Origin: Candidatus Beckwithbacteria bacterium
GTDB lineage: Bacteria > Patescibacteriota > Microgenomatia > UBA1400 > CG1-02-47-37
Assembly (NCBI GenBank): GCA_043826085.1
Contig: JBDRQW010000012.1
Coordinates: 1-32,972, forward strand
DNA length: 32,972 nucleotides
Reading direction: 5' to 3'
Shown: positions 10,372-28,362 of the stretch, piece after piece
Layout of the letters: each line of letters begins with the position of its first letter
Position numbering within the stretch: the first letter of the stretch is position 1
Notes under the pieces: model-generated
The model's input: only the letters and a program-made list of their open reading frames with translations
Databases searched by the model: none
Told to the model about the DNA's origin: nothing
Position numbers and translations under genes: made by a program

Positions 10372-10851
10372 ATGCCAAGAACAGGAAGAGTAAATAAACG
10401 AATTACCAAACCAGACCCGGTTTATGATAATAAATTGGTTGCTAAAATAATCAACAAAATTATGTATAGTGGCAAAAAATCAATTGCCCAAAAACATGTC
10501 TACCAAGCTCTAGATCTCGTCAAAGAACAAACCAAAGAAGATCCAATTATTGCCTTACGCCAAGCCATTGATAATGCCAAACCAACTATGGAAGTTAGAT
10601 CCAGAAGAGTTGGTGGTGCTTCCTATCAAGTTCCTATGCCTGTTAGGGGAGAAAGAAGAGAATCTTTGGCCATTCGTTGGATTATTGATGCCGCCAGAAA
10701 AAGACCAAACTCTCAATATCATCACTTTTACCAAAAACTGGCCGCTGAACTTACCGATGCCCTAAAAAATCAAGGTGGTGCAGTTGACAAAAAAACTCAA
10801 GCTCACAAAGTCGCCGAATCCAACAAAGCCTTCTCCCACTTCCGCTGGTAG
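10372..10851 (+). CDS. rpsG: 30S ribosomal protein S7
   Basis: SRRVGGASYQVP and NKAFSHFRW. Confidence 0.99.
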   Translation: MPRTGRVNKRITKPDPVYDNKLVAKIINKIMYSGKKSIAQKHVYQALDLVKEQTKEDPIIALRQAIDNAKPTMEVRSRRVGGASYQVPMPVRGERRESLAIRWIIDAARKRPNSQYHHFYQKLAAELTDALKNQGGAVDKKTQAHKVAESNKAFSHFRW

Positions 10852-10882
10852 TACCTTCAGGGAGACTCCCTGAAGGTACTAC
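10848..10882. repeat. Family A REP-like palindrome, copy 1 (downstream flank of the transposase; overlaps the rpsG stop)
   Basis: Perfect 35-nt palindrome GTAGTACCTTCAGGGAG-A-CTCCCTGAAGGTACTAC. Confidence 0.95.
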
Positions 10883-11074
10883 AATTCAAATATCCAAAAC
10901 CACATTCTTAATTCTAATTATATCACTTTCATCAGTTTCTTCAACAAAATTCTTATAAGAATTTCTCGAGTTAATTTTAGAAAAATAGCTTAATATTTCA
11001 TCAGTATTTACCCATGACTGTTTAAATAAACCCAAGTAATTTGCATAACTAGAGTACCTATAATCCTCTAAAAA

Positions 11075-11099
11075 ACCTTCAGGGAGTCTCCCTGAAGGT
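11075..11099. repeat. Family A palindrome, copy 2 (in-frame inside the transposase; PSGRLPEG)
   Basis: ACCTTCAGGGAG-T-CTCCCTGAAGGT. Confidence 0.95.
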
Positions 11100-11378
11100 G
11101 CAAGATCAGTAGGATTTCTATGAATATATTTTGATAAATAAATATATTGCTCTTCAGAAGTAATTTCAACAGCCTTATACGTTCCTTGAAATAATGGTCC
11201 AACTCTTTTATATTTCCGATTAAAATACATAGAATACTTAGTTGCCAAAGAGCGCATAAAATAATTCATTGACATTTCCTCTTTTTGGAAAATGAATAGA
11301 TGAAAATGGTTGGGCATTAAACAATAAGCCATCAATTTTATTGTTTCGGCATGGTTCTTCAACTGTCGAGATGGAGCT

Positions 11379-11403
11379 ACCTTCAGGGAGTCTCCCTGTA
11401 GGT
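11379..11403. repeat. Family A palindrome, copy 3 (in-frame inside the transposase; LQGDSLKV)
   Basis: ACCTTCAGGGAG-T-CTCCCTGTAGGT (one mismatch). Confidence 0.93.
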
Positions 11404-11573
11404 CGAGTGTCTTTGGTAAGGATAAATATAACTTTAAATATCCTAAAAAAGTTTTGTAATCATCAACGGTCTTAAAAATATCACCCTTTGCCACTCCACG
11501 ATTATATATATGATAATATGTATTTTCTTTGTATTCCTTCAACGAATTCTTTGGAGGCATAAATTTAGTATAC

Positions 11574-11598
11574 ACCTTCAGGGAGTCTCCCTGAAGGT
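11574..11598. repeat. Family A palindrome, copy 4 (upstream flank of the transposase)
   Basis: ACCTTCAGGGAG-T-CTCCCTGAAGGT. Confidence 0.95.
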
Positions 11599-11644: not shown

Positions 11645-12574
11645 ATGACAAACAATCCTTTACCGGAACCTGTTATTCCGTCTTCAGTTTTACCTCAATC
11701 AATTCCATCATTAACTTCTCAGGCTTCACCAATCCTTCCCCGGAAAAAATCCTTCAAATGGCTCACCGTTTTAATTATTCTTATCCTTCTCACCTCCACC
11801 GCCATCTTCGCCTACCAATACTTTCAACTAAAACAGATAACCCCTCAACCTCAAACCACCCCAACTCCCTTAACCATCATTAACCCTTCTCCCTCTCTCG
11901 ATCCGACCGCCGATTGGAAAACATATACTTCTTCAAAATATACATTTAAATACCCAAGTGAATGGATTGTGGATGAAAAATGTACAAAATTAGGACACCC
12001 CGCTAGTAATCCATGTGCATATTCATCTGATTATCATCCTATCACTAAAAAGATTGAGCCAGGGGAGGGCGGTATTGATACTGTAACTGAATACAACATT
12101 GGAACTCTCCTCAGTGTTGATTTAATAGATGACATTACTTACGACTCTGTTGGTTTTTGTTCACCAGGAGGCCCTTTGTCAATATATAATTGCCATGAAA
12201 AAATAATCAACGGAAATAGATATGTTACAAGAGAAATAGGAACTTATTTTTATAATACAACAGTCATTAATGTTTGGTTATTAATGGATAATAATGCAGT
12301 CGTAGATTTAAACTTTTTCTTTTCAAAAGCAAATAAAATCAATGACCTGAAAATTTTCGACCTCATCCTTTCCACCTTTAAGTTTATAGAATCATCTGAA
12401 AAAGAAGTCATTGGCATTCAAACTTCTGTATGTTGTTCATGCCCAACCAAAATTCCCCCATCTCTTCTTAACACAAGCGGCTGGGTTTTATATGAAAAAG
12501 GCAAAAATTACTCTATTTATTTACCAAAAATATGTGATAGAGTTGATTGTCAGCCTTGTCCCCCAACTTTATAG
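11645..12574 (+). CDS. Membrane-anchored hypothetical protein (Microgenomates PsbP-like 'WKTY...FDxILSTFKF' type) with a Cys-rich tail
   Basis: Pro-rich N-terminus, single TM helix, PT linker, DPTADWKTY and FDLILSTFKF motifs, C-terminal CCSC...C...CQPCPP. Confidence 0.75.
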   Translation: MTNNPLPEPVIPSSVLPQSIPSLTSQASPILPRKKSFKWLTVLIILILLTSTAIFAYQYFQLKQITPQPQTTPTPLTIINPSPSLDPTADWKTYTSSKYTFKYPSEWIVDEKCTKLGHPASNPCAYSSDYHPITKKIEPGEGGIDTVTEYNIGTLLSVDLIDDITYDSVGFCSPGGPLSIYNCHEKIINGNRYVTREIGTYFYNTTVINVWLLMDNNAVVDLNFFFSKANKINDLKIFDLILSTFKFIESSEKEVIGIQTSVCCSCPTKIPPSLLNTSGWVLYEKGKNYSIYLPKICDRVDCQPCPPTL

Positions 12575-27048: not shown

Positions 27049-27613
27049 TAAAAAAATCGTCATTGCCATAGTTGGTATGGCCGGTAGTGGCAAGTCAATT
27101 AGTTGTGCTCACTTTAAGAGTCTTGGCTACCCGATTTTAAGGTTTGGCGATCAAACAGACATTGGTTTAAAAGAATTAGGTCTTTCTTTAATTGAAGCTA
27201 ATGAGAAAAAATATCGGGAAGATTTGAGAAAAAATTATGGTATGAAAGCTTACGCCGTAAAAATAGAGCCACGCATTATAAAGGCCTTTAAAAAATCAGA
27301 CATAGTTTTTTTAGATGGGCTTTATTCTTGGGAAGAATATACTTATTTAAAAAGCAAGTTTAGTAATTTTTTTCTTATTTGTATTTATGCTCGTCCGGCT
27401 GTTCGTTATCAACGCTTAGTTAAACGTTTAATTCGTCCTTTAACAAAAAAAGATGCCCATCAACGTGATATTGCCGAATTAGTCAATCTTCACAAAGGCG
27501 GACCAATTGCCATGGCTGATTTTTTAATTAAAAACAACAAACAAACCAAAAAGCTCTTCGACAAACTCACCGACACCCTCACCCTAATTAAAAATCACGC
27601 TCCAGGAGCGTGA
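27041..27613 (+). CDS. P-loop nucleotide kinase, archaeal-like dephospho-CoA kinase/UPF0200-type
   Basis: VGMAGSGKS P-loop, DGLYSWEE, RD..E and IAMADFLIKN motifs. Confidence 0.7.
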   Translation: MANKKIVIAIVGMAGSGKSISCAHFKSLGYPILRFGDQTDIGLKELGLSLIEANEKKYREDLRKNYGMKAYAVKIEPRIIKAFKKSDIVFLDGLYSWEEYTYLKSKFSNFFLICIYARPAVRYQRLVKRLIRPLTKKDAHQRDIAELVNLHKGGPIAMADFLIKNNKQTKKLFDKLTDTLTLIKNHAPGA

Positions 27614-27614
27614 T
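27594..27614. repeat. Family B variant palindrome supplying the kinase stop and the putative map GTG start
   Basis: Perfect ATCACGCTCC-A-GGAGCGTGAT. Confidence 0.85.
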
Positions 27615-28362
27615 AGAGGTAACTATGAATAAAATCAATTTAATGGCAGAAGGTGGAGCTAAGTTACACCAAATAAAAGAAGATTTAAAAAAAATTTCCA
27701 AACCTGGAGTCAGGTTAAGCGAAATTGAGGCTAAAGCCCAAACTTTAATTAAAAAAGCCGGTGGTAAACCTAGTTTTGCTATGGTCCCGGGCTACTCTTG
27801 GGCCACCTGTATTAATCTTAATGAAGGTTTGGTTCATGGCATTCCCGATGATAAACAATTAAAACTGGGCGACCTTGTTTCTATAGATGTTGGCATTTTC
27901 TATAAAGGTTTTCACACAGATTCGTGCATTAGTTTTATTGTTGGCAATCTAACTGATTATCCCAAAAAGCAAGAATTTTTAGAAACCGGTCAACAAGCCT
28001 TAGATTTAGCTATAAAACAAGCTAAAATAGGCAACCATATTGGTCATATTTCAAAAATAATACAAGAGATTATCGAAGCCAAAGGCTATAATGTTTCTAG
28101 AAATTTTACCGGTCACGGTATCAGTACTGTTCTTCATGAACAACCAATGATTCCTTGTTTTCTAGAAGGGGAAATCAAAAACACTCCTGCTATTACCAAA
28201 AATCAAACTTTGGCTATCGAAGTTATTTATATGGCTGGCAACTCAGATACCATCACTGATAAAAAAGACAACTGGACTGTAGTCACCAAAGATAATCAAA
28301 TAGCCGGCATAGTCGAGCACACTATTGCAGTGACAGGGTCTGACCCTGTCATCCTTACTTAA
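27610..28362 (+). CDS. map: Methionine aminopeptidase type I
   Basis: VHGIP, DVG...HTD, GHGI...LHEQP, AIE and EHTIAVT motifs. The start may be ATG 27625. Confidence 0.96.
   Translation: MIEVTMNKINLMAEGGAKLHQIKEDLKKISKPGVRLSEIEAKAQTLIKKAGGKPSFAMVPGYSWATCINLNEGLVHGIPDDKQLKLGDLVSIDVGIFYKGFHTDSCISFIVGNLTDYPKKQEFLETGQQALDLAIKQAKIGNHIGHISKIIQEIIEAKGYNVSRNFTGHGISTVLHEQPMIPCFLEGEIKNTPAITKNQTLAIEVIYMAGNSDTITDKKDNWTVVTKDNQIAGIVEHTIAVTGSDPVILT
28331..28351. repeat. Family E palindrome in-frame in the map C-terminus (TGSDPV)
   Basis: Perfect TGACAGGGTC-T-GACCCTGTCA. Confidence 0.85.

What the first reader, a model, noticed from the sequence alone, without database searches (positions are those of the whole stretch)
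10848..11598. RAYT transposase carries its own REP twice inside its coding sequence, in two different frames
Seen: the 25-nt palindrome ACCTTCAGGGAG(A/T)CTCCCTGAAGGT flanks the gene on both sides, with the central base showing inverted orientation. It also occurs twice within the ORF, read as LQGDSLKV and PSGRLPEG. Both internal copies fall between conserved blocks (before the HUH motif, and between YIHRNP and YRYSSY), leaving catalytic motifs intact. Copy 1 begins with GTAG, the tetranucleotide of classical GTAG-type REPs, though the other copies lack it. Inference: this is a self-targeting enzyme and shows that the element tolerates or favours frame-preserving insertion.
Basis: partly seen in the sequence, partly recalled or inferred. 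Interest (0 to 1): 0.8.

Follow-up and report, generated by a model that had tools for sequence, protein, structure and literature searches.

The report
RAYT gene carrying its own hairpins
A hairpin-cutting transposase gene of a tiny groundwater bacterium carries its own DNA hairpin on both sides and twice, in frame, inside two floppy loops of its coding sequence; this is real, but the layout has already been published for a related enzyme group.

Summary
The 25-nt palindrome occurs four times at this locus (0 expected): both flanks, codons 54-61 (one mismatch) and codons 155-162 of a 224-aa Y1-HUH (RAYT-like) gene on the minus strand.

Of 30 related genes with a perfect flanking palindrome, 24 carry that same palindrome inside the coding sequence (2 mismatches or fewer). 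Only 45 of 1410 non-own pairs do.

Both sites are low-confidence surface loops. The positions and frames of the inserts differ between lineages, so the loops were colonised repeatedly.

The genome holds about 19 RAYT paralogues, each with its own hairpin. About half of the dispersed copies sit in frame in long ORFs, among them pheT, cysS, miaA, mutM, secA and recJ.

Two truncated RAYT copies in other genomes start exactly at the site-1 hairpin, so the internal copies behave as element ends.

In-frame REPs inside tnpA_REP genes were published by Quentin et al. 2018 for subclass 2.4. This protein has subclass-2.1-like motifs, and its inserts lie outside the HuH-Y interval. This scan also noted the same layout before on other CPR DNA.

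Verdict: a new variant of a known kind, of moderate interest.

The parts
10848..10882 (.). 3'-flank REP. It is a 35-nt extended palindrome (GTAG...CTAC 'double foot') with a 25-nt core at 10853-10877. It fills the 34-nt gap between the convergent rpsG and RAYT genes and includes the rpsG TAG stop codon (10849-10851).
10886..11560 (-). RAYT-like Y1-HUH transposase CDS: 224 aa plus a TGA stop at 10886-10888, with the ATG at 11558-11560. HUH (NHFH) is at 11300-11311 and the catalytic Tyr145 of YIHRNP at 11126-11128.
11075..11099 (-). Internal REP at site 2, an exact 25-nt copy read as PSGRLPEG (residues 155-162). It lies in the loop after the Tyr helix (pLDDT below 50). On the sense strand it is followed by TTTTT.
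11379..11403 (-). Internal REP at site 1, a 25-nt copy with one mismatch read as LQGDSLKV (residues 54-61). It lies in the loop between helix 32-46 and strand 74-81 (pLDDT 52-67), before the HUH motif.
11574..11598 (.). 5'-flank REP, an exact 25-nt copy that ends 13 nt before the ATG.
11567..11574 (-). Extended -10-like box TGTATACT (sense strand), 6 nt before the ATG. A similar box (TATACT, TATAGT or TATAAT, mostly after TG) is visible in most of the 48 RAYT genes printed; this was judged by eye and not counted.
   Evidence: The consensus scan did not call it, because that scan also needs a -35 hexamer.

Best explanation
This is a compact REPtron of a Patescibacteria-specific RAYT lineage. 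Its order is: hairpin, -10-like box, RAYT gene, hairpin.

SHOWN:
- The cognate 21-25-nt hairpin also lies twice inside the gene, in frame, in two poorly ordered surface loops. Both loops are outside the HUH-to-Tyr catalytic interval.
- Each paralogue or homologue carries its own hairpin variant at these loops.
- The exact position and frame of the inserts differ between lineages.
- The same hairpins sit in frame in housekeeping genes.
- Truncated RAYT copies break at the site-1 hairpin.

INFERRED mechanism:
- The RAYT, or a REP-directed process that depends on it, acts mainly in cis or locally. It inserts or rewrites its hairpin at nearby DNA and at existing hairpin sites.
- Selection then keeps only copies that are stop-free, add whole codons and fall in tolerant loops. 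Two such loops exist in the RAYT itself, so they are hit and refreshed again and again.
- On this reading the internal copies are tolerated by-products that stay competent as element ends. They are not parts the protein needs.
For: Identity of the gene:
- Pfam Y1_Tnp E 7e-11.
- The AlphaFold model (pLDDT 76) matches 4er8_A best, E 2.4e-4, TM 0.64 on the target.
- HUH and Y---NP are invariant in 25 homologues.

Covariation:
- In the own genome, 8 of 14 paralogues with a flanking palindrome hold it inside the CDS at 0-1 mismatch, and a ninth at 3 mismatches. All off-diagonal distances are 4 or more.
- Over 48 genes from this and other genomes, 24 of 30 own pairs match at 2 mismatches or fewer, against 45 of 1410 non-own pairs.

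Repeated events rather than one ancient insert:
- In clade A the palindrome is at a fixed column, read LQGxSLK.
- In clade B it lies 12-15 residues further along the same loop.
- Site 2 shows at least three layouts: the PSGxxxEG frame, the YKDxPRR frame, and one that starts directly at the NP motif (locus L005).

Tolerant loops: site 1 has pLDDT 52-67 and site 2 is below 50.

Local enrichment: 4 of 14 family copies lie within 750 bp of a 1.05-Mb genome.

The same process acts elsewhere:
- 65 of 120 non-RAYT hits lie in ORFs of 120 aa or more. The hosts include PheT, CysS, MiaA, MutM, SecA and RecJ by Pfam.
- pheT shows a clean 21-nt insertion relative to the same-genus genome G048.
- A 21-nt second palindrome is nested inside the mutM REP of G068.
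- Orthologous sites in cysS, miaA, mutM and the rpsG 3' end carry different REP variants in different genomes.

Internal copies act as ends: the RAYT copies in L071 and L072 begin at residues 51 and 54, exactly at the site-1 hairpin, with unrelated DNA upstream.

Not an assembly artefact: a contig from an independent run (X3) covers 10700-11520 with one difference and no indel.
Against: - No biochemical result exists. Cis preference is an inference borrowed from other bacterial transposases, not shown for Y1 enzymes.
- In clade A the site-1 palindrome is nearly universal (24 of 25 aligned homologues) and keeps one column and one frame. That looks more like maintenance than chance re-insertion.
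- 5 of 14 own paralogues with flanking palindromes have no internal copy. The GC filter dropped one of these (C118), so that count would be 24 of 31 with it.
- Contigs from four runs showed no excision or indel at the hairpins. Contigs cannot show rare variants.
- In the SufC-like ATPase the hairpin covers a native conserved motif (Pfam ABC_tran positions 1-8). That points to rewriting of similar sequence rather than plain insertion, by a mechanism I cannot specify.
Confidence: 0.6

Rival explanations
1. The internal hairpins are selected cis-regulatory elements. The RAYT binds them in its own ssDNA or mRNA, or they attenuate transcription or translation, so the enzyme limits its own production. 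Covariation is then kept by selection for recognition.
For: - The site-1 palindrome is present in 24 of 25 homologues at one column and one frame.
- 17 of 30 genes have zero mismatches between internal and flank copies, although the proteins are only 33-78% identical.
- The 5' copy abuts a conserved -10-like box, where binding could repress the promoter.
- The site-2 copy here is followed by TTTTT, which looks like a terminator.
Against: - The same in-place covariation is seen in cysS, miaA, mutM and after rpsG, where RAYT autoregulation has no role.
- Orientation of the asymmetric loop is inconsistent between genes.
- Positions and frames differ between lineages.
- 5 of 14 own paralogues lack internal copies.
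- The printed sequences of other paralogues show no T-run after site 2. This was not tested systematically.
Confidence: 0.2
2. Each loop received one ancient insertion. Internal and flanking copies have since co-evolved by ordinary point mutation with compensatory changes, and nothing targets the gene today.
For: - Clade-A site 1 keeps one column and frame across genomes of the order.
- Arm changes are compensatory, for example CTTCAG/CTGAAG against CTGCAG/CTGCAG.
Against: - Independent point mutation cannot produce identical 21-25-mers at four places per gene in 17 of 30 genes.
- It also cannot produce the same family-specific loop at many unlinked loci.
- There are at least two layouts at site 1 and three at site 2.
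- Fresh events are visible: the 21-nt pheT insertion and the nested palindrome in mutM.
Confidence: 0.1
3. The peptides encoded by the hairpin (LQGDSLKV, PSGRLPEG) are what is selected, for example as part of hairpin recognition. The DNA palindrome is secondary.
For: The LQGxSLK peptide is conserved in 24 of 25 homologues.
Against: - The two sites read the same DNA in different frames.
- Clade B encodes unrelated peptides (FQVRNLE, FKVPNFK, VKVPNLN) from its own palindromes.
- Both loops have low model confidence.
- By my rough estimate, not computed, codon choice alone would make this peptide palindromic in fewer than 1 in 10,000 cases.
Confidence: 0.04
4. The repeats are an assembly or chimera artefact at palindromes.
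For: Contigs of run X4 break near 11053-11125 and 11475-11546, next to the hairpins.
Against: - A contig of run X3, from another study, spans 10700-11520 with one difference.
- The same layout recurs in 17 loci from other genomes.
Confidence: 0.01

Closest known systems
   Same: Cognate REPs flank the gene and also lie inside it without breaking the frame. They sit in a variable peripheral region away from the catalytic site. A 'double foot' GT[AG]G...C[TC]AC form exists, as in the 3' copy here.
   Different: [quoted passage not shown] The key motifs there are WQ and YIxNNP, and the HuH-Y spacing has a median of 88 aa.
- Here the inserts lie before HuH and after Y. The motifs are NHFH, FQ, YIHRNP and SS, and the spacing is 58 aa.
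- That motif set matches the second variant given for subclass 2.1 in Table 1 of the paper. For that subclass the paper reports no REP-like sequences nearby.
- Most copies here have no GTAG.
REPtrons: RAYT/TnpA_REP genes flanked by inverted REPs (Nunvar 2010, PMC2817692, passages; E. coli TnpA_REP structure 4ER8; Corneloup 2021, PMC8266576, abstract and section 29)
   Same: A Y1-HUH enzyme bracketed by its own hairpins, with the same hairpin family dispersed in the genome. Enzyme and REP co-evolve; Nunvar 2013 (PMC3686654) also reports different REP classes at syntenic RAYTs.
   Different: - Published RAYT groups average 1.3-1.8 copies per replicon (Bertels 2017, PMC5581495, passage). This 1.05-Mb genome has 19 tblastn hits.
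- The families are small here, 5-18 copies each.
- The protein scores 40.8 bits on NCBIfam REP_Tyr_transpos, below the cut-off of 80.
Intragenic REPs and Rickettsia palindromic elements (Di Nocera et al. 2013, PMC3733652; passages read)
   Same: Palindromic repeats are read through in frame in housekeeping genes, including tRNA synthetases and repair genes, presumably in tolerant loops.
   Different: - The units here are single 21-27-nt hairpins, not GTAG- or CGTC-tagged.
- They come from more than ten families, each tied to its own RAYT paralogue.
- The RAYT genes themselves are hosts.
IS200/IS605 TnpA elements (fold matches 2a6o, 2xma and others)
   Same: The HUH-Y1 fold, subterminal hairpins at both ends and a compact one-gene unit.
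   Different: The Y---NP motif of class 2 replaces Y---Q. There are no near-identical copies: the paralogues are 33-61% identical. The hairpins are also dispersed on their own.

Membership tests
Y1 HUH transposase superfamily (Pfam PF01797) | HUH motif, catalytic Tyr and a profile match above the curated cut-off | tested here: met
   NHFH at residues 84-87 and Y145. Pfam score 42.7 bits against a cut-off of 23. Both motifs are invariant in 25 homologues. Fold matches to 4er8, 2a6o and 2xma.
RAYT / TnpA_REP (class 2 of Quentin 2018) | Y---NP signature | tested here: met
   YIHRNP, with Y145, N149 and P150 invariant. The signature is as stated in PMC6006769.
RAYT / TnpA_REP (class 2 of Quentin 2018) | Gene flanked by REPs, with the same REP dispersed in the genome | tested here: met
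   Flank copies at 10853-10877 and 11574-11598, with opposite central bases. There are 14 family copies in the genome.
RAYT / TnpA_REP (class 2 of Quentin 2018) | NCBIfam equivalog NF047646 at or above its cut-off | tested here: not met
   40.8 bits against a cut-off of 80. The protein is a distant relative of the curated RAYT set.
Canonical GTAG-type REP | 5' GT[AG]G tetranucleotide at the foot of the hairpin | tested here: not met
   Only the 3'-flank copy has GTAG...CTAC. The three other locus copies and the 10 dispersed copies lack it (flanks).
TnpA_REP subclass 2.4 | WQ and YIxNNP motifs, a variable insert between HuH and Y, and HuH-Y spacing around 88 aa | tested here: not met
   The protein has FQ (residues 124-125) and YIHRNP, and the spacing is 58 aa. 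No palindrome lies between HuH and Y. The comparison is with Table 1 of PMC6006769 by motifs only, not by phylogeny.
TnpA_REP subclass 2.1 (Bertels group 1; TIRYT-like) | NH[YF]H, FQ, Y[IV]HLNP, a proximal SS motif, and a C-terminal HTH-like extension | tested here: inconclusive
   NHFH, FQ, YIHRNP (R where the motif has L) and YSSY fit. Pfam calls no HTH domain in the 60-aa C-terminal part. No tree with reference members was built.
Active REP nuclease/transposase | Binding, cleavage and strand transfer of the cognate single-stranded REP | not testable with these tools
   This needs purified protein and oligonucleotides.

The most novel reading that the evidence does not exclude
Hairpin sites in these genomes are old, but the hairpin sequences at them are young. 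On this reading the RAYT rewrites existing hairpin sites in place, using the copies at its own locus as master templates. The copies embedded in its coding sequence then ensure that enzyme and substrate are always inherited, duplicated and diverged together. This would explain three things: why orthologous sites in cysS, miaA, mutM and after rpsG hold a different REP variant in each genome; why a native ABC-ATPase motif has become a REP; and why 19 private RAYT-REP pairs coexist in about 1 Mb. It would also be a first sequence-level handle on how REPs spread, which the Corneloup 2021 abstract calls 'poorly understood'.
Probability: 0.25. Interest if true: 0.75.

Novelty: new variant of a known kind. 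Interest (0 to 1): 0.45.

Why it matters
How REPs spread is still unsettled (Corneloup 2021, abstract and section 29). This lineage offers many natural replicates in tiny genomes: 19 private enzyme-hairpin pairs in one genome, internal copies that track the flanks, truncated genes that break at the internal hairpin, one hairpin nested inside another, and in-place turnover at orthologous sites. Together these could show whether RAYTs act in cis, whether hairpins are targets as well as cargo, and how essential proteins tolerate 7-8 extra residues. For annotation, the finding warns that conserved-looking peptides such as LQGxSLKV in CPR proteins are footprints of mobile DNA.

Tried and rejected
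- A profile search of solved structures by sequence found nothing at E 0.01 or better. The fold search was needed instead.
- Laying contigs of four runs showed no indel or joint at any hairpin. The three joints listed (11149>11279, 11158>11305, 11207>11300) have short sides, were found at 85% likeness and do not touch the hairpins, so I take them as paralogues from other organisms.
- The RNA run X9 gives one clean 151-nt contig (11225-11371). DNA carry-over cannot be excluded, so this does not show transcription.
- I considered that the mobile unit is always 21 nt. One search does not support this: the conserved, paired flanks extend to 23-27 nt in several families, and the inner 21 nt are conserved by the way the copies were collected. 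Only three occupied-versus-empty comparisons show 21-nt steps.
- The sigma-70 scan called no promoter upstream of the ATG.
- Locus L070, a third truncated copy, is masked by N at the junction and cannot be read. A fourth partial copy (G020:C132) is cut by a contig end.
- Searches for CPR/Patescibacteria RAYT literature found nothing relevant.
- Supplements are closed. They may list cases like this one: Quentin 2018 Fig. S10, and Di Nocera 2013 Additional files 3 and 4.
- No structure-based mapping of the two loops onto the DNA-binding face of 4ER8 was done.

Full report
OBSERVATION

The 25-nt palindrome ACCTTCAGGGAG[A/T]CTCCCTGAAGGT occurs four times between 10853 and 11598. Three copies are exact and one has a single mismatch. 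None of 100 dinucleotide-preserving shuffles of the window had any match.

The minus-strand ORF reads the two inner copies as LQGDSLKV and PSGRLPEG. Homologues start at MP[AP]KN, so the gene runs from the ATG at 11560 to the TGA at 10886-10888 (224 aa). The copy at 11574-11598 is therefore a 5' flank.

The 3' copy is the core of a 35-nt palindrome, GTAGTACC...GGTACTAC (10848-10882). It folds at -16.4 kcal/mol as ssDNA. It fills the whole gap to the convergent rpsG gene and contains the rpsG TAG stop codon.

WHAT THE GENE IS

- Pfam gives Y1_Tnp (PF01797), E 7e-11.
- NCBIfam REP_Tyr_transpos scores 40.8 bits, below its cut-off of 80.
- An AlphaFold model built from 25 homologues (mean pLDDT 76.3) matches 4er8_A best. 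That entry is E. coli TnpA_REP bound to a REP hairpin (E 2.4e-4). IS608 and ISDra2 TnpA follow.
- N84-H85-x-H87 and Y145-x-x-x-N149-P150 are invariant in the alignment.
- A protein search returned 7,717 relatives at E 0.001 or better. Where the sources give names, they are transposase, or RayT, of Patescibacteria or Candidatus Beckwithbacteria.
- In a sample of 201 genomes of the same order, 74 have a match at E 1e-20 or better, many with several copies.

The window's own genome (1.05 Mb, 129 contigs, 36% GC) has 19 tblastn hits to this protein at 33-61% identity. One hit is cut by a contig end.

A scan for perfect palindromes shows that each paralogue has its own palindrome. The palindromes are unrelated in sequence between the more distant paralogues. 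The same variant sits both in the flanks and inside the coding sequence. Examples:
- ACCTTCAAGGTTGGACCTTGAAGGT appears four times at the gene on contig C39.
- TTCCAGGTACGGAACCTGGAA appears three times at C78.
- TGACAGGGTC[A/T]GACCCTGTCA appears three times at C15.

I compared each flank 21-mer with every coding sequence. The own-gene distance is 0-1 for 8 of 14 paralogues, 3 for one and 8-9 for five. No off-diagonal distance is below 4.

I then added 29 genes from other genomes. Of 30 genes with a perfect flank palindrome, 24 hold it inside at 2 mismatches or fewer, and 17 of those hold it at 0. Only 45 of 1410 non-own pairs reach 2 mismatches or fewer. The GC filter in that script dropped the C118 flank palindrome, which has no internal match. 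With it the count would be 24 of 31.

The loop peptides change with the palindrome: LQGPTLK, LRGQSSQ, LRGSTPK, FQVRNLE, VKVPNLN.

WHERE THE COPIES LIE

- Site 1 is in the coil between helix 32-46 and strand 74-81. Ten-residue pLDDT means there are 52 and 67.
- Site 2 is in residues 151-165, all below pLDDT 50, after the helix that carries Tyr145.
- Both sites lie outside the HUH-to-Tyr interval.

The alignment of all 48 genes shows more than one layout per loop:
- In the clade containing this gene, the site-1 palindrome keeps one column and one frame, with its centre on the second base of a codon.
- In a second clade the palindrome lies 12-15 residues further along the same loop.
- Site 2 occurs in the PSGxxxEG frame, in the YKDxPRR frame, and once directly at the NP motif.
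- This gene has four extra residues (FLED) after its site-2 copy. That looks like the remnant of an older right arm (LEG in relatives). This last point is my inference.

Orientation of asymmetric loops is not consistent between genes.

One DNA element read in different frames, orientations and positions argues against selection on the peptide. It also argues for repeated events.

THE SAME ELEMENTS IN OTHER GENES

I searched the genome with 17 family motifs. Of 120 hits away from RAYT genes, 65 lie in open frames of 120 aa or more. A few hits are counted under two related motifs.

For family A there are 14 copies: 4 at the RAYT, 9 in long ORFs and 1 elsewhere. They are read as LQG[DV]SLK or [PT]S[GR][RS]LPE. 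None is read in the frame that would give TGA.

Pfam confirms the hosts as PheT, CysS, MiaA, MutM, an ABC ATPase, RecJ (which carries two families) and SecA. In this window, methionine aminopeptidase carries another family's copy at 28331-28351.

Comparison with five genomes of the same family gives the following:
- pheT has a clean 21-nt insertion relative to G048.
- cysS, miaA and mutM carry a palindrome at the same site in several genomes, but with a different variant in each.
- In mutM of G068, a 21-nt segment with a second palindrome is nested inside the first.
- In the ABC ATPase the palindrome coincides with the native ILxGVSLxV motif (Pfam ABC_tran positions 1-8).

After rpsG, G068 has a solo hairpin followed by fusA. 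G048 has a hairpin plus a RAYT that is 60% identical, at the same place.

INTERNAL COPIES AS ENDS

One search listed four partial matches. I read three of them.
- In G060 (L071) and G153 (L072), RAYT homology begins at residues 51 and 54, exactly at the site-1 palindrome. The DNA upstream is unrelated and there is no start codon.
- The third (L070) is masked by N at the junction.
- The fourth is cut by a contig end.

This is the product expected from a deletion or a joining event between the 5' flank copy and the site-1 copy.

EXPRESSION SIGNALS

In most of the 48 genes (by eye; not counted), a -10-like box such as TGnTATACT lies 6-8 nt before the ATG, with the 5' hairpin directly upstream. 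This suggests a leaderless or very short-leader mRNA and a hairpin at the spacer/-35 position. That is my inference; the consensus scan did not call it. The same scan flags the site-2 hairpin plus TTTTT as terminator-like.

INDEPENDENCE FROM ASSEMBLY

A contig of run X3, from a different study, covers 10700-11520 with one difference and no indel. Contigs of run X4 break beside the hairpins, as assemblers do at repeats.

LITERATURE

- Quentin et al. [quoted passage not shown] They add that some members of subclasses 2.7/2.8 carry a REP insertion. Table 1 of that paper gives NH[IFV]H, WQ and YIxNNP for subclass 2.4. For subclass 2.1 it gives NH[YF]H, FQ, Y[IV]HLNP and SS, with 'no' REP.
- The present protein has NHFH, FQ, YIHRNP and YSSY, with 58 aa between HuH and Y. 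By motifs it is 2.1-like, not 2.4. I built no tree to confirm this.
- Di Nocera et al. 2013 (PMC3733652) describe intragenic REPs in several species.
- Bertels et al. 2017 (PMC5581495) report 1.3-1.8 RAYT copies per replicon.
- Nunvar et al. 2013 (PMC3686654) report different REP classes at syntenic RAYTs.
- Searches found no paper on RAYTs or in-frame palindromes in Patescibacteria.
- Supplementary files could not be opened.
- Earlier notes of this scan record the same layout in other CPR genomes, and in-frame REPs elsewhere in this genome. One of those notes led me to the 2018 paper, which I then read myself.

READING

What is shown:
- This is a REPtron whose cognate hairpin also occupies two tolerant loops of the enzyme's own gene.
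- The internal copies covary with the flanks across paralogues and genomes.
- The layouts are multiple and independent.
- The same hairpins lie in frame in essential genes.
- Truncated genes break at the internal hairpin.

What is inferred: the enzyme, or a process that depends on it, acts mostly locally and at existing hairpin sites, and selection keeps only stop-free, codon-preserving copies in tolerant loops. I put 0.6 on this reading, 0.2 on a selected autoregulatory role, and 0.1 on pure vertical co-evolution. The peptide-function and artefact readings get very little.

VERDICT

The phenomenon is published for another subclass. This is a new variant: a different subclass by motifs, different loops, extreme paralogue number and in-place turnover.

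Noticed in passing
window 11561-11574 (sense strand GGTGTATACTAAATTT-ATG) and the same place in loci L002-L030 and the own-genome paralogues: A -10-like box (TATACT, TATAGT or TATAAT, mostly after TG) lies 6-8 nt before the ATG in most of the 48 RAYT genes printed (by eye; not counted), with the 5' hairpin directly upstream. This suggests leaderless transcripts and a hairpin at the spacer/-35 position.
   Followed up: partly
window 11065-11099, minus strand: The site-2 hairpin is followed by TTTTT on the sense strand, so an intrinsic-terminator-like site lies inside the coding sequence. Whether paralogues share this was not tested systematically.
   Followed up: no
window 28331-28351: An exact copy of the palindrome that belongs to a different RAYT paralogue (on contig C15) lies in frame, read VTGSDPV, at the C-terminal end of the methionine aminopeptidase gene (27610-28362; Pfam Peptidase_M24).
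   Followed up: partly
whole genome G000: There are 19 tblastn hits to the RAYT in 1.05 Mb, at 33-61% identity, each with a private palindrome family of about 5-18 copies. Published RAYT groups average 1.3-1.8 copies per replicon.
   Followed up: partly
G000 contigs C2, C46, C70, C113, C4, C48 (loci L031-L034, L039, L040): PheT, CysS, MiaA, MutM, SecA and RecJ carry REP hairpins in frame. RecJ carries two different families.
   Followed up: yes
G000 C65:5258-5278 (L035) and G068 (L056): In a SufC-like ABC ATPase the hairpin coincides with the native N-terminal ABC motif ILxGVSLxV (Pfam ABC_tran positions 1-8). This looks like native sequence rewritten into a REP rather than an insertion.
   Followed up: partly
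L051 (G068 mutM): A 21-nt segment holding a second palindrome (CCCCGATCAAATCGGGG) is nested inside the REP at the mutM site.
   Followed up: partly
L065 (G068) and L066 (G048), 3' end of rpsG: G068 has a solo hairpin with a partial arm duplication and then fusA, with no RAYT. G048 has a hairpin plus a RAYT only 60% identical to this one, at the same place. Each genome has its own hairpin variant there.
   Followed up: partly
L071 (G060:C4) and L072 (G153:C6): These RAYT remnants begin exactly at the site-1 hairpin, with unrelated upstream DNA and no start codon.
   Followed up: yes
window 32614: A copy of the palindrome family of the RAYT on contig C123 lies outside any long ORF.
   Followed up: no
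window 11645-12574: The divergent neighbour encodes a 309-aa protein with an N-terminal membrane anchor and a Cys-rich C-terminal part. It has no Pfam family. A similar protein lies near rpsG in G036.
   Followed up: no
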